From the NCBI GenBank assembly GCA_964596895.1, contig CAZQVZ010000001.1, positions 1-46,068 of the forward strand: a stretch of DNA of 46,068 nucleotides. Reading direction: 5' to 3'. The notes beneath the pieces were generated by a model. It searched no databases. It saw nothing but the letters and a program-made list of their open reading frames with translations, and was not told where the DNA came from. The position numbers and the translations under genes were made by a program. Below are positions 4,977 to 46,068 of the stretch, piece by piece. The number at the start of each line of letters is the position of its first letter. The first letter of the stretch is position 1. The DNA is from an uncultured Myxococcaceae bacterium (GTDB lineage: Bacteria > Myxococcota > Myxococcia > Myxococcales > Myxococcaceae).

Positions 4977-5011
4977 GGTCGGGTCGGCAGGGGCAACAGC
5001 GAGCCCCAACC

Positions 5012-15513: not shown

Positions 15514-15601
15514 GCGCGCGTGTCGGCCGACTATAGGCGATCCGCCCTGCTCCCTGCCCGTGCGGCCGCCGGGGAGGGCCAATCCGCTATGCTCGCCGGC
15601 C

Positions 15602-27736: not shown

Positions 27737-27835
27737 CCTCGGGAAAGCCGAGGTATGTGGACGTAACTTCCTTATTCTCTATATCCGGGCGTCCTGCGAG
27801 AGGTGCTGCACACGCAGTTCACGTCAGGAAACGAA

Positions 27836-28990
27836 ATGCAGACGCCTCACCCCGAAGTCCGACACCCGAGCACCCGCACCGCCTTGTTCATCCTCACCCT
27901 CGCCTTGACCCTGGGGTGTGGCTCTCCGGAGGGGACGGAGGATGGGCCGGACGCGGGCGGCGGCGGGGACGGCACTGACGCAGGCCAGACGGCCAACGCG
28001 CCGGAGGTCGAGAGCACCTCGCCCCTGGCCGCTGCGACGGACGTCGCCCTGAACGCGCCCATCACCGCGCACTTTAGCCAGGACCTCTCGCCCGTCTCCG
28101 TCACCGCGGCCACCTTCACCGTGACCATGGGGACCGCCCAGACGCCGGTCGCCGGAGTGGTCATCTACGCCAACCGGCGCGCCCACTTCTGGCCCGCCCA
28201 CAGGTTGCAGAGCAACACCGCGTACACCGCGACGGTGCACACCGGCGTCCTGAACACAGAAGGCGCGGCGCTCGCCGAGTCCCACGGCTGGACCTTCACC
28301 ACCGGTGACAGCGTGGGGCCGGGGCTGCCGGTGGACCTTGGGACCGCGGGCGGCTTCGTCATCCTCTCCAAGAGCGGCGTCTCCACGGTGCCCACCTCGG
28401 CGGTGACCGGCAACATCGGCGTGAGCCCCGCGGCGGCCAGCTACATCACCGGGTTCTCGCTCACCGTGGACGGGACGAACGTCTTCTCCTCGTCGCCCCA
28501 GGTGACCGGCCAGCTCTACGCCGCGGACTACGCCGCGCCGACTCCCGCGAACCTGACCACCGCCGTGGGTGACATGCAGCTCGCCTTCACCGACGCCGCC
28601 GGCAGGTCCTCCGACTTCACCGAACATGGCGCAGGCGACATCGGCGGGATGACACTCGCGCCGGGCGTCTACAAGTGGGGCACCGGCGTGCTGGTCCCCA
28701 CCGACGTCACGCTGAACGGCTCGGCGACGGACGTGTGGATCTTCCAGGTTGCCCAGGACCTGACCGTGGCCAACGGCGTCACGGTCCTCCTCTCCGGCGG
28801 AGCCCTGGCGAAGAACGTGTTCTGGCAGGTGGCGGGGAAGGTGGAGCTCGGCACCACCGCTCACATGGAGGGCGTCCTCCTCAGCCAGACCTCCATCACC
28901 CTGCAGACCGGCGCCTCCTTGAACGGCCGGATGCTGGCGCAGACGGCGGTGGACCTGGACGGGAGCACTGTGGTCCAGCCCGCGCCGTAG
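27836..28990 (+). CDS. Lipoprotein with an Ig-like (SbsA/Big_5-type) domain and a DUF3494 ice-binding-family beta-solenoid
   Basis: TALFILTLALTLGC lipobox. PEVESTSPLAAATDVALNAPITAHFSQDL...TVT... Ig-like. LGTAGGFVILSKSGVSTVPTSAVTGNIGVSPAAASYITGF ... GVYKWGTGV ... LNGRMLAQTAVDL are typical of DUF3494. Confidence 0.8.
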   Translation: MQTPHPEVRHPSTRTALFILTLALTLGCGSPEGTEDGPDAGGGGDGTDAGQTANAPEVESTSPLAAATDVALNAPITAHFSQDLSPVSVTAATFTVTMGTAQTPVAGVVIYANRRAHFWPAHRLQSNTAYTATVHTGVLNTEGAALAESHGWTFTTGDSVGPGLPVDLGTAGGFVILSKSGVSTVPTSAVTGNIGVSPAAASYITGFSLTVDGTNVFSSSPQVTGQLYAADYAAPTPANLTTAVGDMQLAFTDAAGRSSDFTEHGAGDIGGMTLAPGVYKWGTGVLVPTDVTLNGSATDVWIFQVAQDLTVANGVTVLLSGGALAKNVFWQVAGKVELGTTAHMEGVLLSQTSITLQTGASLNGRMLAQTAVDLDGSTVVQPAP

Positions 28991-35506: not shown

Positions 35507-35791
35507 ATGTCGGACGCGAAGGCCCTCTCCGAGCGCGCGCGCCAGCTCGTCGGCGAAGGCGCACTCCTCCTCGACGTGCGCACCCCTGAAGAGTTTCGGC
35601 AGGGGCACCTCGACGGCGCGGTGAACATTCCGGTGCAGGAGCTCGCACGCAGGCTCGCGGAGCTCGAGCCGAAGGCGCGCCCCCTGGTCGTCTATTGCGC
35701 GGCGGGCATGCGCGCGCAGTCGGCGGTGGAGCTGCTGGTCCGCCAGGGCTTCGAGAAGGTCCTCTGCCTGGGCGGGATGAGCGCCTGGTGA
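35507..35791 (+). CDS. Single-domain rhodanese-like sulfurtransferase
   Basis: LLLDVRTPEEFRQGHLDGAVNIP ... PLVVYCAAGMRAQ (active-site CxxGxR loop). Confidence 0.85.
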   Translation: MSDAKALSERARQLVGEGALLLDVRTPEEFRQGHLDGAVNIPVQELARRLAELEPKARPLVVYCAAGMRAQSAVELLVRQGFEKVLCLGGMSAW

Positions 35792-35826
35792 AGCAATCAA
35801 TCAAAGATGAAGTGGAAGGAGCAGAC

Positions 35827-37206
35827 ATGAGAGCCGTATCCCTGATCCTCTGCCTGATGGCCCCCCTGGCCTTCGCGCAGGCCCCGGCCTCCGCGTCCCT
35901 GAAGGTGGAGCATGAGAAGTACCAGCTCGACAACGGGCTGGAGGTCATCCTCCACGTCGACAAGCGGCTGCCGGTGGTGGCGGTCAACGTCTGGTACCAC
36001 GTGGGCGCGTTCCACGAGCCCGAGGGCCGCAGCGGCTTCGCGCACCTGTTCGAACACATGATGTTCCAGGGCTCGGCGCACGTCGGAGACGACCAGCACA
36101 TCGGCATGCTGGAGCGGCTCGGCGCCACCGACCTCAACGGCACCACCAACTTCTACCGGACGAACTACTTCCAGAGCGTCCCCACGAACCACCTGGAGAC
36201 GGCGCTGTGGCTGGAGAGCGACCGGATGGGCTTCCTCCTCCCTGCGCTCACCGGGGAGAAGCTGAAGACGCAGCAGGAGGTGGTGAAGAACGAGCGGCGC
36301 CAGCGCATCGAGACCGCGCCGTACGGCTTCGCGCAGGAGAAGCTCTGGCAGACGATGTTCCCCCAGCGGCACCCGTACCATGGCCGGGTCATCGGCTCGA
36401 TGGCGGACCTCGAGGCAGCCACCGTCAAGGACGTGAGCGACTTCTTCACCACCTGGTACGCGCCCTCCAACGCCACGCTCGCCATCGCCGGGGACATCGA
36501 CCCTGCGCAGGTGAAGCCGCTGGTGGAGAAGTACTTCGGCTCCCTCCCCGGCGCGCCTGAGCCGAAGGCGCCGGAGGTCGCGGACGCGAAGCTGGAGAAG
36601 GAGACGGTGCTCTCGCACGACGAGCAGATCGCCACGCTGCCTGGCCTCTTCATGGCCTGGCACACCCCGGCGCTGTTCGAGGAGGGGGACGCCGCCAGCG
36701 ACGTGCTCTCCTCCGTCCTCTCCGAAGGCAAGGCGAGCCGGCTGCACAGAAGGCTCGTCCGCGAGAAGCGCATCGCCCAGTCGGTGAGCGCGTTCCAGTG
36801 GAGCATCCAGGGCCAGAGCGTGTTCATGGTGGAGGCCATCGCCGCGCCGGGGCACGACGTGCAGGCGCTGCAGGCGGAGATCGACGCGGTGCTGAACGAG
36901 GTGCGCGAGAAGGGCGTGACCGAAGAGGAGGTCCGCCGCGCGCGCAACCGCATCGAGACCGACTTCGTGGCCGGCCTGCAGTCGGTGGGCGGGATGAGCG
37001 GCAAGGCGGACCGGATGCAGCTGTACAACCACTTCTTCGGTGAGCCGGATGGCTTCGGGCGGGACCTCGCACGCTACGAGGCGGTGACCCCCCAGGCGGT
37101 GCAGGCGTTCGCGAAGACGTACCTCACCCCGGAGCGCCGCGCGGTGATGCGCGCAGTGCCGGCCGGTGGTGCGCAGGCCGAGCAGGCCCAGAAGGAGATC
37201 AAGTGA
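35827..37206 (+). CDS. M16-family (pitrilysin-type) zinc peptidase, active subunit
   Basis: ATG 35827 with GGAAGGAG upstream. Signal MRAVSLILCLMAPLAFA. Inverted zinc motif GFAHLFEHMMFQG (HxxEH) and downstream ...NGTTN...T.Y. Confidence 0.9.
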   Translation: MRAVSLILCLMAPLAFAQAPASASLKVEHEKYQLDNGLEVILHVDKRLPVVAVNVWYHVGAFHEPEGRSGFAHLFEHMMFQGSAHVGDDQHIGMLERLGATDLNGTTNFYRTNYFQSVPTNHLETALWLESDRMGFLLPALTGEKLKTQQEVVKNERRQRIETAPYGFAQEKLWQTMFPQRHPYHGRVIGSMADLEAATVKDVSDFFTTWYAPSNATLAIAGDIDPAQVKPLVEKYFGSLPGAPEPKAPEVADAKLEKETVLSHDEQIATLPGLFMAWHTPALFEEGDAASDVLSSVLSEGKASRLHRRLVREKRIAQSVSAFQWSIQGQSVFMVEAIAAPGHDVQALQAEIDAVLNEVREKGVTEEEVRRARNRIETDFVAGLQSVGGMSGKADRMQLYNHFFGEPDGFGRDLARYEAVTPQAVQAFAKTYLTPERRAVMRAVPAGGAQAEQAQKEIK

Positions 37207-38795
37207 TGCGCGCGCAGACTCTCTTCATGTCCACGCTCCTGGCCGCGGCGCTCCTCTTCGCCGCCGGCTGCAAGACCACGCCCGAGCCGCGCGAGGACGC
37301 GTCCGCTGACGACCAGGCCGGCGCCAGCGCGCCGGGTGAACTGCCGCAGGTCCCCGAAGGGGAGGCCTGGCGGCAGCAGCTGCCGAAGCCCGGCGAGGCG
37401 CCGGAGCTGGTCATCCCCACCTTCGAGCGGACCACCCTGGGGAACGGGCTCACCCTCATCGTCAGCCAGCGGCGGGACTTGCCCTTGGTGTCCATGGTGG
37501 TGGCGCTCGCGAGCGGCGCGGCGCAGGACCCGGACGGCAAGGCAGGCCTCGCGGAGCTGACCCACCGGACGCTGCTGGAGGGTGCCGGCAAGCGGGACGC
37601 CATCGCGCTCGAAGAGGCGTTCGCGGAGCTGGGCGGCACGCCCTTCGTGGGCACCCAGTATGACGGCGCGGTGCTCGGCACCCGGGTGCTGCGTCGCAAC
37701 GCGCAGGACGCGCTGGCGCTACTCGCGGACGTGGTGCTGCGGCCCACCTTGAAGCCCGAGGACTTCGAGAGGAAGAAGTCGGAGCACCTGAACACGCTCG
37801 CGCGTCAGATTGGGACGCCCGGCTACCTCGCGCAGTGGGCCTTCGCGAACGTGCTCTACGGGGCGAAGCATCCGTATGGGCAGCTCGTGGGCGGCACCCC
37901 GGACTCGGTGCAGGGGCTCACCGGCAAGGACGCGCAGGCGTTCTGGAAGAAGCACGCAGGCCCGCGCGCCGCGGCGCTGGTGGTGACCGGTGATGTGACG
38001 CTGGAAGAGGCGAAGGCCTGGGCGGAGAAGACCTTCGGAGGGTGGAAGAGCGCCGCGGTGCGGCCGCCCAGGCCGCCGGAATTGCCCGTGGCGACGGGGA
38101 CCCAGGTGGTGTTGGTGCCCAAGCCGGGGCTGGTGCAGACGGTGGTGGCCATGGGGCGCCCCTCCATCGAAGCGGGGCACCCGGACGAGGCCGCGCTGGA
38201 ATTGGCTACCACCGTGTTCGGCGGGATGTTCGGCTCGCGGCTGAACATGAACCTGCGCGAGGCGAAGGGCTACACCTACGGCGCCTCCTCCTACGTGAGC
38301 ACGCGCCGCGGTGAAGGTCCCCTGGTGGCGTCGTCTTCGGTGCGGGCGGACGTGACGGGGCCCGCGGTGCAGGAGTTCCTGAACGAGCTGCGCGGGCTGC
38401 AGGAGCGCCCCATCACCGAGGCGGAGCTCACCGACGCGCGGGTGGGGCTCATCCAGTCTTTGCCCGGGAGCTTCAAGACGGTGGACGCGCTGGCGCAGGC
38501 CGCGGCCGGCATCTGGCTGTCGGAGAAGGACCTCGACCATTACCGGAAGCTCGTGGAGCGGCTGGAGGCCGCCACCCCCGCGCAGGTGCAGGCCGCCGCG
38601 GAGCAGTACTTCGCGCCGAAGACCCTGAACCTGGTCCTGGTCGGTGACCCCGAGGTGGTCCGCAAGCAGCTCGAGCCGCTGGGGCTCGGCGAGCTCCAGG
38701 TGCGCCCCCCGCCGGAGGTGCCGAAGGGTGCCGCGCCCGCTGGCAAGCCCGCCGCGAAGCCGGCGCCGGGCGGCTCCACGTCCAGCGCGCCGTAG
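37203..38795 (+). CDS. M16-family peptidase-like lipoprotein lacking HxxEH (probable non-catalytic partner subunit)
   Basis: The start overlaps the upstream stop (GTGATG). MMRAQTLFMSTLLAAALLFAAGC. M16 fold signatures are GLAELTHRTLLEGAG and ...NLREAKGYTYGASS..., but there is no HxxEH. Confidence 0.85.
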   Translation: MMRAQTLFMSTLLAAALLFAAGCKTTPEPREDASADDQAGASAPGELPQVPEGEAWRQQLPKPGEAPELVIPTFERTTLGNGLTLIVSQRRDLPLVSMVVALASGAAQDPDGKAGLAELTHRTLLEGAGKRDAIALEEAFAELGGTPFVGTQYDGAVLGTRVLRRNAQDALALLADVVLRPTLKPEDFERKKSEHLNTLARQIGTPGYLAQWAFANVLYGAKHPYGQLVGGTPDSVQGLTGKDAQAFWKKHAGPRAAALVVTGDVTLEEAKAWAEKTFGGWKSAAVRPPRPPELPVATGTQVVLVPKPGLVQTVVAMGRPSIEAGHPDEAALELATTVFGGMFGSRLNMNLREAKGYTYGASSYVSTRRGEGPLVASSSVRADVTGPAVQEFLNELRGLQERPITEAELTDARVGLIQSLPGSFKTVDALAQAAAGIWLSEKDLDHYRKLVERLEAATPAQVQAAAEQYFAPKTLNLVLVGDPEVVRKQLEPLGLGELQVRPPPEVPKGAAPAGKPAAKPAPGGSTSSAP

Positions 38796-39299
38796 GTGCG
38801 GGCCGCCGCTCTCCCGCGCCTGAGGGCGGCGGCGGTGAGAGCGGGCGTCCCGCGGCAGGCTCTCACTTCTCTTCATCCCCGGCTGCGTCGCCACGGGGCG
38901 TGCCGAAGGGGTTACCGCCAGGAGCAGCGTAACGTCCGGTACATCGTCCATGACGTCACGCGCTCGATCACCTTCTACACCTCGCACCTCGGCTTCACCC
39001 TGGAGGCACATCCGGCCCCGGGGTTTGCCATCGTCTCGCGGGGGGCGCTCAAGCTCTTCTTGAACCAACCCGGCACCGGCGGGACCGGGCAATCAATGCC
39101 GGACGGACGCGCGCCCGAGCCCGGCGGCTGGAACCGCATCCAGCTCCGGACGACAGACCTGGACGGCCTGGTGGAGGCGCTGCGAGCGGCCGGCGCCCGA
39201 TTCCGCATCGACATCGTGCAGGGAAATGGCGGCCGGCAGATTCTCCTCGAGGACCCCTCCGGCAACCCCATCGAGCTCCTGGAGCCGGTGGCGCGTTAG
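38796..39299 (+). CDS. VOC-family (glyoxalase/bleomycin-resistance/dioxygenase fold) protein. Start codon uncertain
   Basis: From about 38934 the frame reads VRYIVHDVTRSITFYTSHLGFTLE......FAIVSRG.LKLFLN.........GW.RIQL.T.DLD.LV..L...G..F.......G..GRQILLEDPSGNPIELLEP. The only in-frame ATG/GTG/TTG codons upstream are GTG 38796 and 38835, and the translation between them and the domain looks non-protein-like. Confidence 0.7.
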   Translation: MRAAALPRLRAAAVRAGVPRQALTSLHPRLRRHGACRRGYRQEQRNVRYIVHDVTRSITFYTSHLGFTLEAHPAPGFAIVSRGALKLFLNQPGTGGTGQSMPDGRAPEPGGWNRIQLRTTDLDGLVEALRAAGARFRIDIVQGNGGRQILLEDPSGNPIELLEPVAR

Positions 39300-39335
39300 C
39301 CGGCACCGCCGCAATCGGCGGAGCGAACATGGCCA

Positions 39336-40160
39336 TCAGGAGAGCTGCTGGTAGGCCGTTCCGAGCAACTGCACCGCGGCGCGGAGCGCCTGGGCTGCCG
39401 CCTCTGCCGTCTTGCGCCCGAGAAAGGGTATGGCCACCTCGCAACCGAGCTGGGCGTCGCCCGGAACGTCGGCAGGGACGAAGCGGCCCACCGGCGCCCA
39501 TCGCTGCAGCCGGTCGATGAAGCCGGCCGGCAGACGCGCGCGAAAGAGGCGTGGGTCGCCTTGGAGATGCGCGGCCACCCGCAGCCATCCGATGCCCAGG
39601 TGATAGACGTGGAAGTGCCCAACCACCCCCAGTCCGGGCAGCGGCATGTCGAACGCGCCATGACGGGCCGGGAGGCCGAGCGCTGCGAGCGCGGGGTCCA
39701 GTGAAACGCCGTCCGGGGCCCCCGGAAGCACCGGCGCCTGTCGGGAGTTGCCCGTGGGTCTACCCTGAACGTCCTCGGCGCAGGCCGCAAGGTGGGACAG
39801 CAGCGCGAGCAGGTTGCCTTCCCCGAGCACTGCGCCTTCCATGGGCAACGCCAAGGTCAGCTCGAGCTGCTGCCCGGGAGCATCGCCGGAGTACAGGCGG
39901 GCCGCGGGCAGCGGCGCCTGCTTGAGAAGACAGTCGGACGTCCCCAGGGTCTTGCCTGGGCCCAGCGGGTCAGAGACGGTCAGCCGCAGCGCGTTCGCCT
40001 CCAGCAGGGCGGTGTAGGCCGCGGGTGTCCGCCCCGGACCCGGTGACCACCGAAAGCCTGCGTAGAGCGTTCCTCTCGCCGAGGCCCGGACGTCGTACTT
40101 GAAGCCGCTGGCATCCAGGGCTTCGAACAACGGCGCGCTCGCCACGTCACTGGGTTTCAT
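39336..40160 (-). CDS. Hypothetical cytoplasmic protein, candidate immunity or chaperone partner of the upstream nuclease-domain protein
   Basis: ATG 40160 has a GGAG/GAGG-rich upstream sequence and overlaps the 3' end of the 860-aa gene by 14 nt. No signal peptide or TM helix. It looks like two similar halves. I recognise no catalytic motif. Confidence 0.6.
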   Translation of the reverse strand: MKPSDVASAPLFEALDASGFKYDVRASARGTLYAGFRWSPGPGRTPAAYTALLEANALRLTVSDPLGPGKTLGTSDCLLKQAPLPAARLYSGDAPGQQLELTLALPMEGAVLGEGNLLALLSHLAACAEDVQGRPTGNSRQAPVLPGAPDGVSLDPALAALGLPARHGAFDMPLPGLGVVGHFHVYHLGIGWLRVAAHLQGDPRLFRARLPAGFIDRLQRWAPVGRFVPADVPGDAQLGCEVAIPFLGRKTAEAAAQALRAAVQLLGTAYQQLS

Positions 40161-42729
40161 GTTCGCCTCGCTCTCCGGTGATGAAGGCGCCGGCCGGCCC
40201 CATGAACGTGCCCGGCGGTTTGACGGCGCCGTCCGGCCGCAGCATCACTCCGGGAATCTCACTGAGCGGGATGCTGTACTGAGGCAGCTGCGATTGGGTT
40301 CGGGTGTTGAGGGCAGGATCGTTCGGGATGCGCCAGGCGGCCACCGGCTCGCCGGCCGCGTTGGTCTCCACGAAGATGAACGCCCTCGGGATGGGCGTCT
40401 GGTTGGCGGTCTGCGAAGGTGTGCCCTCGTAGAGCGGTAGCTCCCGGTACCCGCCGCCGCGGCTGCGAATCGCCCGCACCAGATGGTTCCGGAGGAAGCT
40501 GTTCCAGAACCTCGCCTGCGGTGTGAAGTTGGACACGTCGGCGTTCGAGCTGCGGACGCCGGGCCCCTCCAGGCGGTCCACGTAGTCGATTCCGTGTCCC
40601 TTCTCGAAGAGCCGCCCCGTTCCATCCTCGAGGTAGGGGTTCTGGTCCCCCACGCCTCGGAGCTCCGGAGGGAGCCGGTTCTCTCCGCCCTGGTACGTAT
40701 CGTTCGGAGGACGGGTCATCGCTTCGCTCTGGAGGACGCGGTCTCCGGAGCGGACGTTGAAATTTATCTTCCCCTGGCCATCCGAGAAGATGCTGATTTC
40801 GAGCGGAACCTCGGGCGCGGTCGGCTCGCGGAAGACGGACCACTCCGGTCCCTGGCGGACCCAGTAGTGCCCTTCCGGCAGAACCGGAAGGCGCTCCGCC
40901 GGGAGCGCGTGGAAGTCGGCGAGGTTGCCGCGCACCTCTGGCGCGACCGAACGTCCACCGGGGCTGCCGCGCATCCCGCGCACCATGAGGATGATGCCGA
41001 CGAGCTGCAGGACGCCCGTGGTGCCGACCTCCCACTGCCCCTCCTCAGAGAGACCCAGCGGCGCGCCCGTCAGCAGCGACTCGTTGCGGCTTCCTTCAAT
41101 GATTCCGGAGATGCCGAGCGTGTCCAACGCGGCGACCATCGGGACCAGCATCAGCCGCCAGCGGTTGTCGGAGCGCCACGCTTCCACGAGGCGGGAACCG
41201 AAACTCATGACGTAGCCCGCCGCCAGCGCCACGGCGCCGACGACTAGCATCGCGGCGCCGAAGGCGATGGCGCCCTTCGCTGCGAGGACAATCAGCCCGG
41301 CCGCGGCGGCCATGACCAGGAGCGCGGCGCCGAACTTCGCCACAGACGTCATGACGCCTCTGGCCCACGGCGGCAGCTCGTTCCACCACCCGGAGATTGC
41401 GTCCGTCGCAGCATCTTCAAGCTCGATGAACGGTGTAAGGACACCACCGAGGAGCCGGGCCAGCGATGCCGTCAGCCCATCCAGCCAGCCAGGACGGGCG
41501 TCGGCGTCCGCCCTGTCCCGTTGCTGTGCGAGCCACGCAGCATCGGCAGAAAGCAAATAGCGCCGCAGGCTGTCGTACTGGTCGCCGGCGCTCAGGCGGG
41601 GGTCAAGGAACGCTGCGGATTCGGCGCTGCCCAGGAATGAGAGCCCGCCGGACCGCCCAAGGTTCGCCGCGGCGCCCCGGGCCTGCAGCGACAGAGACTC
41701 CCCTGCCGCCGCGTATTGGGCGAAGTACCCGGTGACAGGACCGCTGCCCTGGATCGAAGCGGTGACGTAGCCTGAATCCCCCCTCAGGTTGAGAAGCGCC
41801 TCGAAGGAGGGTTCCTCGCCGCCCAGCGCGCCCAGTTGGGCGGCCATGGTCCGGTCGCTGAAGAACACGCGCCCGTCAATTTCGACGGTGACGCTCCTCC
41901 CGTTCGCGTCGGTGTAGGAGACGGTCCGCGAATAGCGCAGCGTATAGGGGTAGGCGGGGCGGTCATCGACAGGACCGAGCCCGTACTCGGGATTCAGCTG
42001 GACGGTTGGAGGCCCCACCACGCCGACGCGCCTATCCGGTTGGTGGTCGAGGACGACGTGCGAATCACTCAGGATTTGCCCCCCATCGCCGGAGGCGGCG
42101 ACGGAGATGTCGTAGCTGGCCCGGGCTCCACCGTCGGCGTCCTGGCTCGCGCCGAACGAAAGGCGGCTCGAGCTCTCCGGGTGGGTCAGCCCCACCCGCT
42201 GCAGCCCTTGCACCTCCCTGTCGCTCTGGGATTGCAGGTCGGGAAACCACTGCTCCGGCCCATAGGCGAGCACCATCCCGCGAGGCGCCGACACCCGGGG
42301 ACGGTGCGGCAGTCCCGCCAGGATGCGGGCGGCGCCGTGGTCGGCGTCGTGTTCGAGCTGCTGCCGTGAGCCCGGCGGCGCATCTGCCCGGAACTGTGAG
42401 CGGTGCGCGGCTTCGTGGGCCAGGATGACGTCGCGGTCCAGACGGGTATGGACCCTGCTGGACAGCGTCGTTCTGCCATCCCGGGTCGTTGCCAGCGGCG
42501 ACGAAGAAGGCGCCCTTCGCCGCTGCGACCGGACTGTCTCGAACGAATGGAGAGCATGCGCTTGCGAGCGCGCGTCCGGAACCGCCGTGCGCGACGAGGT
42601 GTCAGGCGTCTCCTTCGAGTCGGCCGAGGACTTCCTGTGTGAAGGGGCAGCGAAGGGCATATCGGCACACGGTGGCTCTTCCGGCTTCAGGGCAGTCGAA
42701 CCGAAGGGCCGAGCCCGGAAACCCCGCAC
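40147..42729 (-). CDS. Polymorphic-toxin-like protein with an N-terminal DUF4157-like HExxH segment, a central TM-helix cluster and a C-terminal His-Me-finger (DNA/RNA non-specific endonuclease-like) domain
   Basis: SRVHT...VILAHEAAHRSQ (HEAAH at 42403-42417). Three or four TM helices (VMTSVAKFGAALLVMAAAAGLIVLAA..AIAFGAAMLVVGAVALAAGYV.., LMLVPMVAALDTLGISGII, TTGVLQLVGIILMV). C-terminus has LFEKGHGIDY...SNFTPQARFWNSFLRNHL (His codon at 40594-40596), comparable to Serratia-nuclease DRGH...SNITPQ...N..W..LE. Start is uncertain (GTG 42729 or ATG 42660). Confidence 0.7.
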   Translation of the reverse strand: MRGFRARPFGSTALKPEEPPCADMPFAAPSHRKSSADSKETPDTSSRTAVPDARSQAHALHSFETVRSQRRRAPSSSPLATTRDGRTTLSSRVHTRLDRDVILAHEAAHRSQFRADAPPGSRQQLEHDADHGAARILAGLPHRPRVSAPRGMVLAYGPEQWFPDLQSQSDREVQGLQRVGLTHPESSSRLSFGASQDADGGARASYDISVAASGDGGQILSDSHVVLDHQPDRRVGVVGPPTVQLNPEYGLGPVDDRPAYPYTLRYSRTVSYTDANGRSVTVEIDGRVFFSDRTMAAQLGALGGEEPSFEALLNLRGDSGYVTASIQGSGPVTGYFAQYAAAGESLSLQARGAAANLGRSGGLSFLGSAESAAFLDPRLSAGDQYDSLRRYLLSADAAWLAQQRDRADADARPGWLDGLTASLARLLGGVLTPFIELEDAATDAISGWWNELPPWARGVMTSVAKFGAALLVMAAAAGLIVLAAKGAIAFGAAMLVVGAVALAAGYVMSFGSRLVEAWRSDNRWRLMLVPMVAALDTLGISGIIEGSRNESLLTGAPLGLSEEGQWEVGTTGVLQLVGIILMVRGMRGSPGGRSVAPEVRGNLADFHALPAERLPVLPEGHYWVRQGPEWSVFREPTAPEVPLEISIFSDGQGKINFNVRSGDRVLQSEAMTRPPNDTYQGGENRLPPELRGVGDQNPYLEDGTGRLFEKGHGIDYVDRLEGPGVRSSNADVSNFTPQARFWNSFLRNHLVRAIRSRGGGYRELPLYEGTPSQTANQTPIPRAFIFVETNAAGEPVAAWRIPNDPALNTRTQSQLPQYSIPLSEIPGVMLRPDGAVKPPGTFMGPAGAFITGERGEHETQ

Positions 42730-42813
42730 ATTCTACGAACCGCACGCACTCTACCCGAGGCGGCCCTTGCTGCGAGTGCGTCGCACATTGCATCCGAGCT
42801 GCGCGTCGTGCGC

Positions 42814-45015
42814 CTACCTCCGGCTCACCACCGCGGCTCGAGCCTCGCCGCCCGCAGGCGCCGCAGGCCGCGGACTGAACCCCACCGCTGCCCGGCGATT
42901 CTCCGGCTTCTGTCGCCACTCGTCCTTCAGTCGCTCCAGCACCGTCCACGCGTCCTTCGGCGCACCGAGCAGCGGCGCCTGGCGCAGCACGGTGCGGAAG
43001 TCACCGGGCGTGAGCCCCTCCAGCGCGTCCAGAGATGCGCGCAGGGCTCGTGCATCCACGACCTCCACCGCCAGCTCACGCAGCGTCGCCCCGAAGAGCG
43101 CCCAGCGCTGTGGCGACGTCGGCGGCTCGAACCGCAGCTTCAAGGAGAAGCGCCGCAGGGCCGCCGGGTCCAGCGTGTCGAAGTCATTGGTGGCGCAGAG
43201 GAAGAGCCCGTCGAAGACCTCCATCTGAACAAGGAGCTCATTGACCTGGGTGACCTCCCAGGACTGCCGCGCCGAGGCCCGGTCGCGCAGGAAGCCGTCC
43301 GCCTCATCCAGGAGCAGCACCGCACCTTCGTCACGCGCGCGAGCGAACATGCCCGCGAGGTTCGCCTCCGTCTGTCCCACGTAGCAGCCGAGCAGGTCCG
43401 ATGCGCGCTGAAGCTGCAGCGGCCGCCCAAGCACCTCCGCCAGGTGGTGCGCGAACGCGGTCTTCCCGGTGCCCGGCGGGCCGGACATGCACAGCGTCGC
43501 CCACGGATGGGCGACCAGCCGCTCCACCAGCGCCGGCAGCGAACAGCCCGCGACGTTCACGTAGGACAGCGCGTACGCCGGCCCATCCGAAAGCTGCGTC
43601 CTTCGCGCCGGACCCTGCGTCCGAAGCGAGGCCTCCAGCGCGCGCGTGAGCAATTCGCCCCGCGCCTCCATGGAGTCTGGCCGCACCAGCCCACACAGCC
43701 TTCCCGCGCGGGCGATGTGCGCGGGCGTGAGCCGTTCGTCCGCCGAAATGCGCCGCAGCACGTCCGGAGACAGCGCGTCCTCACCGAGCGTCCGGCGCAG
43801 CAGCGCGGCGCGGGCGCGCGCGGGCGGGGCACGCAGCTCCAACAGGTAGTCGAAGCGGCGCAGGAACGCCGGGTCCATCCGCGAGATGTCGTTGCAGACC
43901 CAGATGGCCGGCACCGGGTTCTCCTCCAGGAGCCGGTTCACCCACGCCTTGCCCACCACCTGCTCGCGCGGCGCTCCGAGCGGATCTCCGAACACGTCCT
44001 CCACCTCGTCGAAGAAGACGAGGGCCCGACCCCCGTGACCGCGCCCCACCACCCGCTGACACAGCAGGTATGCGCCGAAGCGCCGGCCCGGCGGCAGCGC
44101 AGAGCCATCGCCCGCTTCGTCCGCGACCTCGTACAACCGAGCATCGACAGCGCCCGCGAGCACCCGCGCCAGCTCCGACTTGCCGGTGCCGGGCCGGCCG
44201 TGGACGAGCACGTTCACGCCGCGGGCTCTCCGCTCCAGCGCCGCGCTGAGCAGCCGCCGCAGGGCATGCAGGTCCGCAGCGACGTGCGAGAAGTCCTCCA
44301 CGCCGCACGACGCCGGGCGCTGCGGCCGGAAGAAGTGGTGGAGCAGCGCCTGCGAACCTGCGTGCCGTGTGAGCAACAGCCGCGTCAGCCCGTTGGCTGG
44401 GCGCAGAGGCGGATCTCGGTGACGCTCCGGATCGCTCAGGAGCAGGAGCCGTCCGCGCAGCAGCGTTCCGTCCGGCCCCAAGGCAGAGATGACCGCGCGC
44501 GCCGGCAGGTGCAGCAGCTTCGCGACAACCGAGGCCACCTGCGGCGTGGACCAGACCTCCACGTGCTCCATCAGCTCGTGCAAGGGCGTCGAGACCTCCA
44601 GCGCCACCGCGAACAGCAGCAACTCGCGCTCCACTTCAGAGAGCCCCAGCGCGTCACCCAGAGAGGCCAGGTTCTCGAACGGCTCGCCCTTCCGCCGCCC
44701 CGGCCGCTTCTCCGCCTTCACCCACGCGCGGTGGAACACCGACCGGCAGGCTTCTTTGGGCAGGTCCTTCCACTCCAGGTCACGCGGGATGGCGAGCTGC
44801 CGGCGCAGGTCTTCGTCCAGGCGGCCGCCCACGTGGTGCTGCCACAGGTCCAGCTCCACCAGGCCGCGCAGGCACCACAGCGAGATGGTCCGGTCGAGCG
44901 CAGCGTCGCCGGAGCGGTTTGAGAGCTTCGAAGTCATCTTCGGGTCCGCGGACGCGGTGCGCCGCGCGCGACTGACGGCCATCAGCCGCGCTCGCGGATG
45001 ACCATCCGTGGCCAT
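42814..45015 (-). CDS. Tandem-AAA+ ATPase (two classic-clade AAA modules, CDC48/Afp15-like architecture)
   Basis: D1: VLVHGRPGTGKSELA (Walker A), LVFFDEVEDVF (Walker B), NDISRMDPAFLRRF. D2: LCMSGPPGTGKTAFA, VLLLDEADGFL, ATNDFDTLDPAALRRFSLKL. About 260-aa N-terminal domain of unknown type. ATG 45015 (alternatives 44982 and 44937). Confidence 0.85.
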   Translation of the reverse strand: MATDGHPRARLMAVSRARRTASADPKMTSKLSNRSGDAALDRTISLWCLRGLVELDLWQHHVGGRLDEDLRRQLAIPRDLEWKDLPKEACRSVFHRAWVKAEKRPGRRKGEPFENLASLGDALGLSEVERELLLFAVALEVSTPLHELMEHVEVWSTPQVASVVAKLLHLPARAVISALGPDGTLLRGRLLLLSDPERHRDPPLRPANGLTRLLLTRHAGSQALLHHFFRPQRPASCGVEDFSHVAADLHALRRLLSAALERRARGVNVLVHGRPGTGKSELARVLAGAVDARLYEVADEAGDGSALPPGRRFGAYLLCQRVVGRGHGGRALVFFDEVEDVFGDPLGAPREQVVGKAWVNRLLEENPVPAIWVCNDISRMDPAFLRRFDYLLELRAPPARARAALLRRTLGEDALSPDVLRRISADERLTPAHIARAGRLCGLVRPDSMEARGELLTRALEASLRTQGPARRTQLSDGPAYALSYVNVAGCSLPALVERLVAHPWATLCMSGPPGTGKTAFAHHLAEVLGRPLQLQRASDLLGCYVGQTEANLAGMFARARDEGAVLLLDEADGFLRDRASARQSWEVTQVNELLVQMEVFDGLFLCATNDFDTLDPAALRRFSLKLRFEPPTSPQRWALFGATLRELAVEVVDARALRASLDALEGLTPGDFRTVLRQAPLLGAPKDAWTVLERLKDEWRQKPENRRAAVGFSPRPAAPAGGEARAAVVSRR

Positions 45016-45091
45016 ATGTGACCTTCATCGTCACGCGTTGACCCGCCCAATGACGCCGGGATAGACCCGCTCGAACCTTCCGGGGAGCCGC

Positions 45092-46068
45092 ATGGAATTC
45101 AAGATCGCCGCCGACGAGCTGAAGAAGGCCCTCTACCGGGCGCAGGGCATCGTGGAGCGCAAGACCACCATGCCCATCCTCGCCAACGTCCTCATCAACG
45201 CCACCAGGACCGGCGTCTCGGTGACCGCGTTCGACCTGGACATCGGCGTGGTCAGCGAGCACCCCGCGGAGGTGATGAAGCCGGGCGCGGTGACGGTCTC
45301 CGCCAAGTACGTCTTCGACATCGTGCAGAACGCGCCGGACGCGCACCTGACGCTCAAGCGCCTGCAGAACAACTACGTGGAGATCACCTCCGGCCCCTCG
45401 CACTTCAAGATCGTGGGCATGGCGCCGGAGGAGTACCCGAAGCTCCCGAAGGAGGAGAACGCGGAGCTGGTGAAGGTGAACGGCGGCATTCTCCTGGAGA
45501 TGATCAAGCGGACGCAGTTCGCCATCTCCACCGATGAGACCCGCTACATCCTGAACGGCGTCTTCTTCGAGCCGCGCGAAGGTGGGCAGACCCGCATGGT
45601 CGCCACCGACGGGCACCGGCTGGCGCTGGTGGAGCGCGCCATGGAGGGAGACTTCAAGCTCAAGAGCGGCGTCATCATCCCGCGCAAGGGCCTCTTCGAG
45701 CTCAAGCGCCTCCTGGACGAAGCGCCAGACGCGGAGTGCCACCTGGGGTTCGCGGAGAACTCGGCGCTCTTCAAGAAGCCCGGCCTCACCATGGTGATGC
45801 GGCTCATCGACGGGCAGTTCCCCGAGTACCAGCGCGTCATTCCCAAGGAGGGCGAGAAGCAGGTGACCCTGCCTCGCATCCGCTTCCTCGAAGGCCTGCG
45901 CCGCATCGCGCTGCTCTCCGCGGACAAGTCCAACGCGGTGAAGGTGCGCCTGTCCGACAACCTGCTGCGCATCACCTCGCACAACCCGGACCTCGGCGAA
46001 GCGCGGGACGACATCGACTGCACCTACCGCGGCGCGGAGCTCACGGTGGGCTTCAACGCGCGCTACCT
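45092..46068 (+). CDS. dnaN: DNA polymerase III beta sliding clamp DnaN, N-terminal about 325 codons (3' end lies outside the window)
   Basis: Not in the ORF track because it is open-ended. ATG 45092 with GGGGAG 4 nt upstream. The frame reads MEFKIAADELKKALYRAQGIVERKTTMPILANVLINA...FDLDIG...QFAISTDETRYILNGVFFE......MVATDGHRLA..E........GVIIPRKG..ELKRLL......FKKPGLTMVMRLIDGQFPEYQRVIP, a classic DnaN sequence. Confidence 0.95.
   Translation, partial: MEFKIAADELKKALYRAQGIVERKTTMPILANVLINATRTGVSVTAFDLDIGVVSEHPAEVMKPGAVTVSAKYVFDIVQNAPDAHLTLKRLQNNYVEITSGPSHFKIVGMAPEEYPKLPKEENAELVKVNGGILLEMIKRTQFAISTDETRYILNGVFFEPREGGQTRMVATDGHRLALVERAMEGDFKLKSGVIIPRKGLFELKRLLDEAPDAECHLGFAENSALFKKPGLTMVMRLIDGQFPEYQRVIPKEGEKQVTLPRIRFLEGLRRIALLSADKSNAVKVRLSDNLLRITSHNPDLGEARDDIDCTYRGAELTVGFNARY

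What the first reader, a model, noticed from the sequence alone, without database searches (positions are those of the whole stretch)
39336..42729. Polymorphic-toxin-like pair: HExxH/DUF4157-like, TM cluster and His-Me nuclease protein with an overlapping downstream partner gene
The 860-aa product combines three parts. (i) SRVHT...ILAHEAAHRSQ near the N-terminus. These are the two conserved flanks I associate with DUF4157, the domain found at N-termini of eCIS-associated and other polymorphic toxins. The segment between the flanks is only about 8 residues here, far shorter than I recall for the family. (ii) A central block of three or four TM helices. (iii) A C-terminal FEKGH...SNFTPQ...WN..L..H segment that parallels the DRGH...SNITPQ...N..W..LE active site of Serratia-type non-specific endonucleases. 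There is no signal peptide. A 274-aa cytoplasmic ORF overlaps its 3' end by 14 nt, the classic toxin-immunity arrangement. I do not recognise this domain combination as a described system.
Basis: partly seen in the sequence, partly recalled or inferred. Interest (0 to 1): 0.75.

Follow-up and report, generated by a model that had tools for sequence, protein, structure and literature searches.

The report
Injection-system nuclease toxin with immunity gene
This is a three-gene cassette (loading-type AAA+ ATPase, an 837-860-aa membrane-inserting nuclease toxin, and its cognate partner protein) of the kind that phage-tail-like contractile injection systems carry; it is a new, Pfam-invisible variant of an already described effector class rather than a new kind of system.

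Summary
ORF 40147-42729 (-) encodes 860 aa (837 aa from the ATG the database uses), and the 274-aa ORF 39336-40160 (-) overlaps it by 14 nt. Neither protein has a direct Pfam or NCBIfam hit. An exhaustive profile search shows four shuffled modules.

- **N-domain:** a truncated HExxH domain. In homologous proteins canonical PF13699 (DUF4157, 'eCIS_core') sits at that position.
- **Middle plus TM block:** a conserved middle domain and four hydrophobic segments, reused in front of other toxin domains.
- **C-terminal domain:** a divergent Endonuclease_NS nuclease. The best Foldseek matches are EndoG and NucA, and one relative passes the PF01223 cutoff.
- **Partner:** it follows the nuclease domain in 7 of 8 independent locus types, three of which have unrelated N-terminal architectures. 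It is absent after the same delivery module in the three loci where that module carries another toxin domain and the downstream DNA is held. That pattern fits an immunity protein, although its confident model is a tandem T3SS-chaperone/YbjN fold.

Homologues lie next to baseplate genes, WHD-AAA+ ATPases and PF13699 effectors. The window has only the ATPase (42814-45015) and no structural CIS genes. The combination of DUF4157, TM helices and a DRGH nuclease is already described (Tme, 2024). I rate it a new variant of a known kind, of moderate interest.

The parts
42814..45015 (-). AAA+ ATPase, 733 aa: winged-helix N-domain, a degenerate first AAA domain and a classical second AAA domain. It has the architecture of the ATPases encoded beside relatives of the effector, and I read it as the CIS cargo-loading type (Afp15/Pvc15/Alg15).
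   Evidence: Pfam gives PF22977 WHD plus two stretches of PF00004 AAA. ATPases with WHD and AAA lie directly upstream of relatives of the effector in L001/L002 and L010/L011, and an AAA ATPase lies close by in L013. Identity to the L001 ATPase is only 34%, in the second AAA domain. The PADLOC IetA hit is generic AAA similarity, and the L001 ATPase gives it too.
42508..42729 (-). Variable, disordered, basic N-terminal region of the effector (residues 1-74 from the GTG; the database start is the ATG at 42660). Candidate loading signal.
   Evidence: Composition: 81% disorder-promoting residues, net charge +7. The region is not conserved and is gappy among orthologues. Disordered N-terminal regions are the loading signal of AlgoCIS cargo (bioRxiv 10.64898/2026.05.27.728243).
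42256..42507 (-). Truncated DUF4157-like HExxH domain (residues 75-158; H105, E106, H109, Q112).
   Evidence: The HExxH..Q residues are invariant in 7 orthologues. hhalign to four PF13699 domains aligns only the second half, with P = 0.0027. No direct Pfam hit appears even at E <= 10. The same subfamily domain heads proteins that carry Endonuclea_NS_2, DddA-like, WHH, HopA1 or lipase domains.
41446..42255 (-). Conserved middle domain of unknown fold (residues 159-428). It is always found together with the TM block.
   Evidence: The domain recurs in PF13699 proteins of 650-2300 aa (P0041, P0057, P0064, P0075, P0084). The only PDB sequence match is a weak one to CdiA-CT, 6cp8, at E = 0.016.
40966..41445 (-). 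Membrane module (residues 429-588) with four hydrophobic segments: a hairpin at ~466-510, then 526-544 and 568-586.
   Evidence: Kyte-Doolittle window peaks are 2.44, 1.95 and 1.58. The module is conserved in orthologues. It is reused in front of other toxin domains in P0026-28, 32-34, 38, 39, 43, 59, 84 and 94.
40150..40944 (-). C-terminal divergent Endonuclease_NS (DRGH-type, beta-beta-alpha-Me) nuclease domain (residues 596-860). The motif is K710-G711-H712. N734, N743, R747 and N748 are also conserved.
   Evidence: The AF2 model has pLDDT 71. The five best Foldseek PDB matches are EndoG and NucA, at E = 2.9e-4 to 5.9e-3. PF01223 hits appear in relatives. The catalytic-motif residues are invariant.
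39336..40160 (-). 274-aa partner, a single-chain tandem duplication of the T3SS-chaperone/YbjN fold. Probably the cognate immunity protein of the nuclease domain.
   Evidence: The AF2 model has pLDDT 85.7 and pTM 0.86. Foldseek matches YbjN, AmyR, SycE, ExsC, SycH, SicP and VecA, with probability mostly 0.9-1.0 and target TM-score mostly 0.45-0.62, each covering one half. Homologues lie directly downstream of the nuclease domain in L001-L004, L007, L008, L013 and L015-L017. They are absent after the same delivery module carrying other C-terminal domains.

Best explanation
**The cassette.** The region 39336-45015 (-) encodes an effector cassette of a contractile injection system (an eCIS-type phage-tail-like particle).

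**The effector.** The 837-860-aa protein is a modular, polymorphic effector built of five parts:
- a disordered basic N-terminus, the inferred loading signal;
- a truncated DUF4157-type HExxH domain;
- a conserved middle domain;
- a four-segment membrane module;
- a C-terminal Mg-dependent, non-specific DNA/RNA nuclease of the Endonuclease_NS (DRGH) family, with H712 as the general base.

**The other two genes.** The upstream WHD-AAA+ ATPase is inferred to unfold and load the effector. The translationally coupled 274-aa protein is inferred to bind the nuclease domain and keep it inactive in the producer and in sister cells, acting as an immunity protein.

**After injection (inferred).** The membrane module is proposed to insert into the target's cytoplasmic membrane and bring the nuclease into the cytoplasm, where it degrades nucleic acid.

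**Shown here:**
- the gene structure and the modular homology;
- the nuclease fold and motif;
- the partner's fold;
- co-variation of the partner with the nuclease domain;
- the CIS context of the homologues.

**Inferred, not tested:** enzymatic activity, inhibition by the partner, loading by the ATPase, and the role of the membrane module.
For: **Modularity.** 353 representative proteins match the full-length profile.
- Some match only the HExxH, middle and TM part and carry a different C-terminus. Sequences are and Pfam results: GH-E nuclease in P0084 and P0094, and no family for P0026 or P0027.
- Some match only the nuclease domain, at their own C-terminal ends. 17 of 44 of these carry canonical PF13699.
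- Some match only the HExxH domain and carry other toxin domains.

**Nuclease.** Foldseek matches EndoG 6m3f at 2.9e-4 and NucA 2o3b/1zm8. H712, N734 and N748 are invariant.

**Partner co-variation.**
- A homologue lies immediately downstream in the window, L001/L002, L003, L004 and L015-L017.
- It also lies downstream in L007, L008 and L013. Their effectors have unrelated N-terminal architectures, such as canonical PF13699 with DUF6861. Local HMM E-values are 6e-27, 1.8e-9 and 2.4e-22, and searches agree.
- No homologue is found after P0026, P0033 or P0059, which have the same delivery module and another C-terminal domain.

**CIS context.**
- L003 and L014 follow Tail_P2_I baseplate genes.
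- The window, L001 and L010 have a WHD-AAA+ ATPase directly upstream.
- PF13699 effectors are neighbours in L001, L003, L005, L012 and L015.

**Literature.**
- DUF4157 marks eCIS cargo (PMC8213781, PMC8894135).
- The disordered N-terminal region and Alg15 mediate loading (bioRxiv 10.64898/2026.05.27.728243).
- Tme combines DUF4157, TM helices and a DRGH nuclease, and its toxicity depends on the catalytic His (PMC11126660).
Against: - **No structural genes.** The 46-kb contig holds no sheath, tube or baseplate gene. The ATPase abuts dnaN at the contig end.
- **Orphan pair.** In Aliiglaciecola the pair sits alone between methylamine-utilisation genes and a sigma-54 activator, so a link to a CIS is not obligatory at the locus level.
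- **Weak DUF4157 evidence.** The window protein itself hits neither PF13699 nor PF01223. The hhalign probability for DUF4157 is only 11%.
- **Imperfect model.** The nuclease model has pLDDT below 50 over the loop just after the catalytic His (residues 119-138 of the domain). TM-scores to EndoG and NucA are only 0.31-0.37.
- **Missing Glu.** No equivalent of the Glu127 of Serratia nuclease is evident.
- **Partner's fold.** It is that of secretion chaperones, not of any immunity family known to me.
- **One exception.** L014 carries the nuclease domain and has no detectable partner.
- **Small sample.** The co-variation rests on a handful of loci.
Confidence: 0.62

Rival explanations
1. The 274-aa protein is mainly a secretion chaperone or loading adaptor and not an immunity protein. 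Like a T3SS class I chaperone dimer, the tandem domains would hold part of the effector unfolded or soluble and hand it to the AAA+ ATPase. It could also do both jobs.
For: A confident model (pLDDT 85.7) shows two alpha-beta3-alpha-beta2-alpha repeats. Each matches SycE, SycH, ExsC, SicP, VecA and YbjN. The effector has four hydrophobic segments that would need shielding in the cytoplasm. An unfoldase-type ATPase is encoded next door. Tandem T3SS/YbjN-type chaperone domains have been predicted in other conflict systems (PMC9503650).
Against: The partner tracks the nuclease domain. It does not track the N-terminal, middle or TM modules that a loading or TM-shielding chaperone would be expected to recognise. 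It is present with unrelated N-terminal architectures (L007, L008, L013) and absent with the same delivery module carrying other toxins (L005, L010, L012). The pair also occurs with no ATPase nearby (L004).
Confidence: 0.2
2. The cassette works without any injection particle. The protein would be a membrane-anchored nuclease of the producer cell, held in check by the partner and triggered or remodelled by the AAA+ ATPase. It would act as an abortive-infection, defence or programmed-death module.
For: The window has no CIS structural genes. The pair is an orphan in Aliiglaciecola. The ATPase gives IetA-type hits in PADLOC. Four hydrophobic segments are compatible with a resident membrane protein.
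Against: The IetA hit is generic AAA similarity, and the ATPase encoded next to the PF13699 effectors in L001 gives it too. Neither the effector nor the partner hits any PADLOC model. The family is embedded in PF13699 and baseplate neighbourhoods. Shuffling of C-terminal toxin domains together with matching downstream genes is the signature of exported polymorphic toxins.
Confidence: 0.1
3. The protein is delivered by another export route that also uses DUF4157-type or polymorphic toxins, for example a T6SS, and not by an eCIS-type particle.
For: DUF4157 is reported in some T6SS effectors as well (stated in PMC11297309). TM-bearing T6SS effectors with dedicated chaperones are known (my own knowledge). 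The window gives no direct link to a particle.
Against: No PAAR, VgrG, Rhs or T6SS adaptor domain was found in the protein or its neighbours. The linked ATPase has the WHD-AAA architecture found beside the relatives of the effector. The neighbourhoods of the homologues contain Tail_P2_I baseplate genes and PF13699 effectors.
Confidence: 0.05

Closest known systems
Tme (BN159_7576) of the Streptomyces davawensis CIS and 'tme-like' effectors (PMC11126660)
   Same: An N-terminal DUF4157-type domain, predicted TM helices and a C-terminal EndA/Endonuclease_NS-type DRGH nuclease. Toxicity of Tme depends on the catalytic His. It is associated with a contractile injection system.
   Different: Tme is 2247 aa and ~70% disordered. 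[quoted passage not shown] The window protein is 837-860 aa with no tape-measure-like region. Its DUF4157 domain is truncated and Pfam does not detect it. It has a distinct conserved middle and TM module, and a dedicated downstream partner. Its nuclease motif is KGH instead of RGH.
DUF4157 (PF13699, 'eCIS_core') eCIS-associated toxins: EATs, and Cgo1/Cgo2 of AlgoCIS (PMC8213781, PMC11297309, PMC8894135)
   Same: A disordered N-terminal region, then an HExxH domain, then a long linker and a variable C-terminal toxin. The genes lie near the ATPase and at the 3' end of CIS operons. Some have adjacent immunity genes.
   Different: The window's N-domain fails the PF13699 model and lacks its first half. 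The window itself has no CIS structural genes. The papers read here do not describe a shared middle and TM module.
Pne1, the nuclease effector of MACs (bioRxiv 10.1101/543298)
   Same: [quoted passage not shown]
   Different: Pne1 belongs to PF13930, has no DUF4157 (bioRxiv 10.64898/2026.05.27.728243), carries a nuclear localisation signal and targets eukaryotic cells. TM helices and an immunity partner are not mentioned in the passages I read.
NucA-NuiA of Anabaena (PDB 2o3b); colicin DNase-Im and CdiA-CT/CdiI pairs
   Same: A nuclease neutralised by a protein encoded next to it. NucA is the second-best structural match of the C-terminal domain.
   Different: The partner resembles T3SS chaperones and YbjN in a tandem arrangement. 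No NuiA chain appears among the 50 matches printed for the partner.
T3SS class I chaperones and the YbjN superfamily (SycE, SycH, ExsC, SicP, YbjN, AmyR)
   Same: Each half of the partner has their alpha-beta-beta-beta-alpha-beta-beta-alpha fold. The tandem copy mimics their homodimer.
   Different: It is a single chain with two copies. It has no T3SS context. It co-varies with a C-terminal toxin domain, not with an N-terminal chaperone-binding region.

Membership tests
PF13699 DUF4157 / eCIS_core | A match to the Pfam model at or above its gathering score (22 bits) | tested here: not met
   No hit for the window protein at E <= 1, or for any of the 7 orthologues at E <= 10. Of 22 proteins with the same N-domain subtype, 2 hit, with a best E-value of 0.0011.
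PF13699 DUF4157 / eCIS_core | The HExxH motif followed by a conserved Gln, preceded by the 'A-[FY]-T-x-G-x-x-[IV]-x-F' element | tested here: met
   H105, E106, H109 and Q112 are invariant, as are the A, T and D of the A-x-T-x-D-G-x-T-x-L element; its Gly is nearly so. hhalign aligns exactly these elements to four PF13699 domains, with P = 0.0027 and probability 11%.
PF13699 DUF4157 / eCIS_core | The N-terminal half of the domain ('f..VRiHtd..a...a..lgA') | tested here: not met
   The region upstream of residue 78 is unconserved and gappy among orthologues. hhalign covers only template columns 49-86.
PF13699 DUF4157 / eCIS_core | Positional equivalence: the domain sits upstream of the same downstream modules as canonical DUF4157 | tested here: met
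   P0084, P0094 and P0057 have PF13699 (198-209 bits summed over two copies each); in P0084 and P0057 one copy lies just before the homologous middle/TM module, and in P0094 a Peptidase_M91-like stretch does. P0033 and P0059 score 21 bits. P0034 and P0039 carry textbook DUF4157 sequences by eye.
PF01223 Endonuclease_NS (DRGH, beta-beta-alpha-Me nucleases) | A match to the Pfam model at or above its gathering score (23 bits) | tested here: inconclusive
   The window protein gives no hit. Relatives give hits below the cutoff in one register: P0012 at 21.8 bits, P0013 at 20.2, P0011 at 17.4, P0015 at 14.3, and one orthologue at E = 0.0074. P0029 passes with 30.8 bits and matches the window family's domain at E = 8.7e-84.
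PF01223 Endonuclease_NS (DRGH, beta-beta-alpha-Me nucleases) | Fold similarity to solved family members | tested here: met
   Foldseek against the PDB: the five best matches are EndoG and NucA (6m3f, 2o3b, 6nju, 1zm8), with probability 0.99-1.00 and E = 2.9e-4 to 5.9e-3. TM-scores are only 0.25-0.37, and the model has pLDDT 71 with a weak active-site loop.
PF01223 Endonuclease_NS (DRGH, beta-beta-alpha-Me nucleases) | The catalytic [DE]-[RK]-G-H histidine and conserved Asn residues (N..PQ, and a helix Asn as metal ligand) | tested here: met
   H712, N734, N743 and N748 are invariant in 15 relatives, and K710 and G711 nearly so. The wider set of 44 keeps R-G-H and N-x-T-P. Which Asn binds the metal is unresolved, and no equivalent of the Serratia Glu127 was seen.
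PF01223 Endonuclease_NS (DRGH, beta-beta-alpha-Me nucleases) | Mg-dependent DNA/RNA cleavage | not testable with these tools
   Needs a biochemical assay.
Polymorphic toxin with cognate immunity gene | One delivery module joined to alternative C-terminal toxin domains, and one toxin domain joined to alternative N-terminal modules | tested here: met
   The 7 close orthologues themselves all keep the same C-terminus.
Polymorphic toxin with cognate immunity gene | The downstream gene co-varies with the toxin domain | tested here: met
   The partner is present in 7 of 8 distinct locus types that carry the nuclease domain. It is present in 0 of 3 informative loci with the same delivery module and another C-terminal domain. 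The sample is small.
Polymorphic toxin with cognate immunity gene | The partner neutralises the toxin | not testable with these tools
   No multimer prediction or experiment was available.
eCIS cargo / eCIS-associated toxin | Encoded in or next to a contractile-injection gene cluster | tested here: inconclusive
   The window has the ATPase only and no structural genes in 46 kb. Among homologues, L003 and L014 follow baseplate genes. L001 and L010 follow WHD-AAA ATPases. L004 is an orphan pair.
eCIS cargo / eCIS-associated toxin | A disordered N-terminal loading region | tested here: met
   By composition only: 81% disorder-promoting residues, net charge +7, and unconserved among orthologues. 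No dedicated disorder predictor was run.
Tme-like effectors | Tape-measure-like coiled coil, the largest ORF of the cluster, located just upstream of baseplate genes | tested here: not met
   The protein is 837-860 aa and has no such region. It lies downstream of the ATPase. Some proteins that share its nuclease domain do have long Ala/Gln-rich N-terminal parts, such as P0045.
T3SS class I chaperone / YbjN superfamily (partner) | The alpha-beta-beta-beta-alpha-beta-beta-alpha fold | tested here: met
   The model has pLDDT 85.7 and pTM 0.86, with two such repeats. Foldseek probability is mostly 0.9-1.0 and target TM-score mostly 0.45-0.62, one half per match. The window partner has no Pfam PF10722 hit. 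The homologue in L008 has a weak one on record.

The most novel reading that the evidence does not exclude
The middle domain plus the four-segment membrane block would be a self-contained translocation device, reused by many DUF4157-type effectors. It would carry cytoplasm-acting toxins (this nuclease, GH-E nucleases and others) across the target's inner membrane after a contractile particle has breached only the outer layers. The tandem T3SS-chaperone-like partner would be a new immunity family that doubles as the adaptor presenting the effector to the loading AAA+ ATPase. That would be a T3SS-like chaperone-ATPase hand-off in a phage-tail-derived machine.
Probability: 0.15. Interest if true: 0.75.

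Novelty: new variant of a known kind. Interest (0 to 1): 0.45.

Why it matters
**Hidden effectors.** A whole subfamily of DUF4157-type effector N-domains escapes the Pfam model that current eCIS toxin predictors rely on. Effector catalogues are therefore incomplete.

**Reusable modules.** The analysis defines two reusable parts: a middle and TM 'delivery' module, and a divergent Endonuclease_NS toxin domain. It also defines a matching partner family with a secretion-chaperone fold. This gives a concrete pair for testing how nuclease cargo with membrane segments is kept harmless, loaded, and moved into a target cytoplasm. These questions remain open for engineered injection systems.

**Limits.** The general architecture and the biology are already described, so this refines known work and is not a discovery of a new kind.

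Tried and rejected
- **Direct family scans.** Pfam, NCBIfam and PADLOC scans of the effector and the partner found nothing.
- **PDB sequence searches.** Profiles of the full length, the C-domain and the N-domain gave only chance-level matches: CdiA-CT at 0.016, SLC15A2, and His-tag artefacts in pyrophosphatase entries.
- **Word-indexed protein search.** It gave only 7, 8 and 5 relatives for the effector, the C-domain and the partner. Modularity became visible only in the exhaustive search.
- **GTDB genome scan.** It found a single locus, in Aliiglaciecola.
- **Metagenome scan with the partner.** It returned only three more orthologous loci.
- **Defence-system reading of the ATPase (IetA).** Rejected as generic AAA similarity.
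Rejected because that element is not conserved.
- **I-OnuI meganuclease matches of the partner.** Rejected: TM-score 0.15 and rmsd ~20 Å.
- **TM-shielding chaperone reading of the partner.** Disfavoured by the co-variation.
- **Promoter and terminator scan of 39000-45200.** Uninformative.
- **Look-ups that failed.**
  - P0001 could not be looked up for an assembly accession.
  - The cluster look-up gave no names.
- Multimer prediction of the nuclease with the partner, and structure prediction of the middle domain.

Full report
**1. What is in the sequence**

The window is a whole 46,068-bp contig with ~70% GC. Three genes lie head to tail on the minus strand.

| Gene | Coordinates | Size |
|---|---|---|
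| AAA+ ATPase | 42814-45015 | 733 aa |
| Large ORF | 40147-42729 | 860 aa from a GTG; 837 aa from the ATG at 42660 used by the public gene call, P0001 |
| Partner ORF | 39336-40160 | 274 aa |

- The partner overlaps the large ORF by 14 nt and has a GAGG 6 nt before its ATG.
- Third-position GC is 0.82-0.87 in the three frames, as in the other genes of the contig.
- dnaN starts divergently just beyond the ATPase, at the contig end. A glyoxalase-family gene converges on the partner.
- The hydrophobic block consists of a strong double-length stretch (residues 466-510) and two moderate segments (526-544 and 568-586). The N-terminus is hydrophilic, basic and rich in disorder-promoting residues.

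**2. Direct annotation fails; homology shows modules**

Pfam, NCBIfam and PADLOC give nothing for the large protein or the partner. The word-indexed search of 5.8 billion proteins finds only seven full-length relatives. They are 56-65% identical and conserved from end to end, so the C-terminus does not vary within the family.

The exhaustive profile search of 1.84 billion representatives finds 353 relatives that fall into classes.

| Class | What matches | What else the proteins carry |
|---|---|---|
| a | HExxH domain, middle domain and TM block (profile positions ~46-570) | A different C-terminus. P0026-28, 32-34, 38, 39, 43 and 59 were read. P0084 and P0094 end in GH-E nucleases. |
| b | Only the C-terminal domain (~585-839), usually at the end of 900-1100-aa proteins | 17 of 44 carry canonical PF13699. 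|
| c | Only the HExxH domain (~43-142) | Endonuclea_NS_2, DddA-like deaminase, WHH nuclease, HopA1, DUF4329 or lipase domains. |
| d | Only the middle or only the TM block | These lie inside 1.2-2.3-kaa proteins. |

This is the architecture of a polymorphic toxin.

**3. The N-domain**

- Profile-profile alignment against four PF13699 domains from neighbouring effector genes aligns 'A-x-T-x-D-G-x-T-x-L ... L-A-H-E-x-x-H-R-x-Q' with 'A-F-T-x-G-x-x-I-x-F ... L-A-H-E-L-x-H-v-v-Q'. The support is weak: P = 0.0027, probability 11%.
- The first half of DUF4157 is absent.
- The stronger argument is positional. Upstream of the homologous middle and TM modules, other proteins carry canonical PF13699 (P0084 and P0057 by Pfam; P0034 and P0039 by eye). 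P0033 and P0059 carry a version at 21 bits against a cutoff of 22.
- I therefore call it a truncated, divergent DUF4157-type domain that fails formal Pfam membership.

**4. The C-terminal domain**

- Five relatives give PF01223 hits below the cutoff in the same register.
- P0029 passes the cutoff at 30.8 bits. It shares the domain with the window family at E = 8.7e-84.
- An AlphaFold2 model of residues 594-860 has pLDDT 71, with a weak loop after the catalytic His. Its five best PDB matches are EndoG and NucA. The sixth is a snake-venom phosphodiesterase, which to my knowledge carries a related nuclease-like domain.
- H712, N734, N743, R747 and N748 are invariant in 15 relatives, and K710 and G711 nearly so. 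The wider set keeps R-G-H and N-x-T-P.
- The spacing from N-x-T-P-Q to N743 equals that from N110 to N119 in my recollection of Serratia nuclease. However, N748 is the Asn kept in more distant relatives, so the metal ligand is unresolved.
- No counterpart of Glu127 is apparent.

**5. The partner**

- A confident model (pLDDT 85.7, pTM 0.86) shows two alpha-beta3-alpha-beta2-alpha repeats.
- Each half matches YbjN, AmyR and the T3SS chaperones SycE, SycH, ExsC, SigE, SicP, VecA and SchA. Probability is mostly 0.9-1.0 and target TM-score mostly 0.45-0.62.
- On fold alone this suggests a chaperone. Gene neighbourhoods say otherwise.

| Locus type | Effector architecture | Partner homologue directly downstream? 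|
|---|---|---|
| Window, L001/L002, L003, L004, L015-L017 | Orthologues of the window protein | Yes |
| L007, L008, L013 | Same nuclease domain on unrelated N-terminal architectures (canonical PF13699 with DUF6861; a long Ala/Gln-rich N-terminal part) | Yes. Local HMM E = 6e-27, 1.8e-9 and 2.4e-22; BLASTP 30% identity over 245 aa; hhalign probability 96.7% |
| L014 | Nuclease domain | No |
| L005/L006, L010/L011, L012 | Same HExxH, middle and TM module with another C-terminus | No. An unrelated 117-aa gene, a regulator, or another effector follows |

L009 ends too soon to judge. The partner therefore tracks the toxin domain, as an immunity protein should. The sample is small, and neutralisation was not tested.

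**6. Context**

- Homologues lie at the 3' side of Tail_P2_I baseplate genes in L003 and L014.
- They lie directly after WHD-AAA+ ATPases in L001/L002 and L010/L011. An AAA ATPase is nearby in L013.
- They lie among PF13699 effectors, most of which are followed by a small gene.
- The window's ATPase has the same WHD, degenerate AAA and AAA architecture.
- The window has no sheath, tube or baseplate gene. Its other genes are ordinary chromosomal ones: Ser/Thr kinases, M16 peptidases, RtcB and dnaN.
- In Aliiglaciecola sp. SL4 the pair stands alone between unrelated genes.
- The effector-partner pair is thus the mobile unit. Linkage to a particle is supported at family level and not at this locus.

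**7. Mechanism**

*Shown:* the modular effector, the nuclease fold and motif, the partner's fold, the co-variation, and the family-level CIS association.

*Inferred from the literature on related systems:*
- The disordered N-terminus is the loading signal, and the AAA+ ATPase loads the cargo, as shown for AlgoCIS Cgo1/2 and Alg15 (bioRxiv 10.64898/2026.05.27.728243).
- DUF4157 is an accessory effector domain (PMC8213781, PMC8894135, PMC11297309).
- The nuclease kills through H712, as in Tme (PMC11126660).
- The partner inhibits the nuclease in the producer.

*My own inference:* the membrane block takes the nuclease across the target's cytoplasmic membrane. Non-homologous hydrophobic blocks precede the same nuclease domain in P0029, P0040, P0045 and P0048, which suggests the requirement is general.

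**8. Comparison and novelty**

- The closest described protein is Tme of S. davawensis, which combines DUF4157, TM helices and an EndA-like DRGH nuclease. It is three times longer, resembles a tape measure protein, and sits elsewhere in its cluster.
- Pne1 shows that eCIS particles can deliver nucleases of this superfamily.
- EATs and Cgo1/2 define the general cargo architecture.
- What is new here:
  - a DUF4157 subtype that Pfam does not detect;
  - a recurrent middle and TM module;
  - a divergent Endonuclease_NS clade with KGH;
  - a partner family built from two T3SS-chaperone/YbjN domains that behaves genomically like an immunity gene;
  - an ATPase-effector-partner cassette detached from structural genes.
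- Verdict: a new variant of a known kind, with interest about 0.45.

Noticed in passing
window 45065-46066 (+): dnaN (the DNA polymerase III beta clamp, all three Pfam domains) starts divergently, less than ~100 bp from the ATPase gene, and runs off the contig end. The cassette therefore sits in what is usually the origin-proximal region, and no dnaA lies upstream of dnaN.
   Followed up: partly
L004 9863-13349 (Aliiglaciecola sp. SL4, NZ_JBGOSE010000007.1): The effector-partner pair is 57% identical to the copy in the 70% GC window, yet it sits in a marine gammaproteobacterium. There it is an orphan pair between methylamine-dehydrogenase genes and a sigma-54 activator. This suggests horizontal transfer of the two-gene unit across phyla.
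   Followed up: partly
P0084 (2307 aa), P0094 (2233 aa), P0057 (1993 aa): These giant proteins have two PF13699 domains each. They look like two effectors fused head to tail. In P0057, for example, an Ntox1 toxin domain is followed by a second PF13699 domain and the middle domain shared with the window protein. P0084 and P0094 also carry the shared TM module and end in a GH-E nuclease.
   Followed up: partly
window 41446-42255 (-), residues ~150-221 of the profile: The middle domain has a weak sequence match to the CdiA C-terminal regions 6cp8 and 6vek (E = 0.016 and 0.042). This is too weak to interpret.
   Followed up: no
L014 4001-8816: This PF13699 effector has the same nuclease domain and no detectable partner. 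Two short reverse-strand ORFs and an unrelated 289-aa ORF follow it. It is an exception to the co-variation rule.
   Followed up: partly
P0029 residues 452-621; L007: Pfam DUF6861 occupies the hydrophobic Gly/Ala-rich block just before the nuclease domain in a canonical DUF4157 effector. DUF6861 may be another pre-toxin membrane module.
   Followed up: no
P0015 (208 aa, on a 196-kb NCBI contig): This gene call contains only the second half of the nuclease domain and starts just before the KGH motif. It could be a truncated or misannotated gene, or an orphan toxin fragment.
   Followed up: no
window 35695-38795 (+): Two tandem M16 (insulinase-type) peptidase genes overlap by 4 nt. They are probably a heterodimeric pair.
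   Followed up: no
window 27803-28990 (+): A protein with a Big_5 Ig-like domain and an ice-binding-like domain (PF11999, E = 5.6e-73).
   Followed up: no
window 3255-5009 (-), 13243-16485 (-), 19801-21162 (-): Two eukaryotic-type Ser/Thr protein kinases (one with a PEGA domain) and an RtcB RNA ligase. Together with the 70% GC content, this gene content looks like a myxobacterium-type genome. That is an inference only; the organism was not identified.
   Followed up: no
L003 5838-10004; L001 19367-21046: Large genes of 795, 591 and 559 aa inside the effector islands have no Pfam match. They may be further uncharacterised CIS components or effectors.
   Followed up: no
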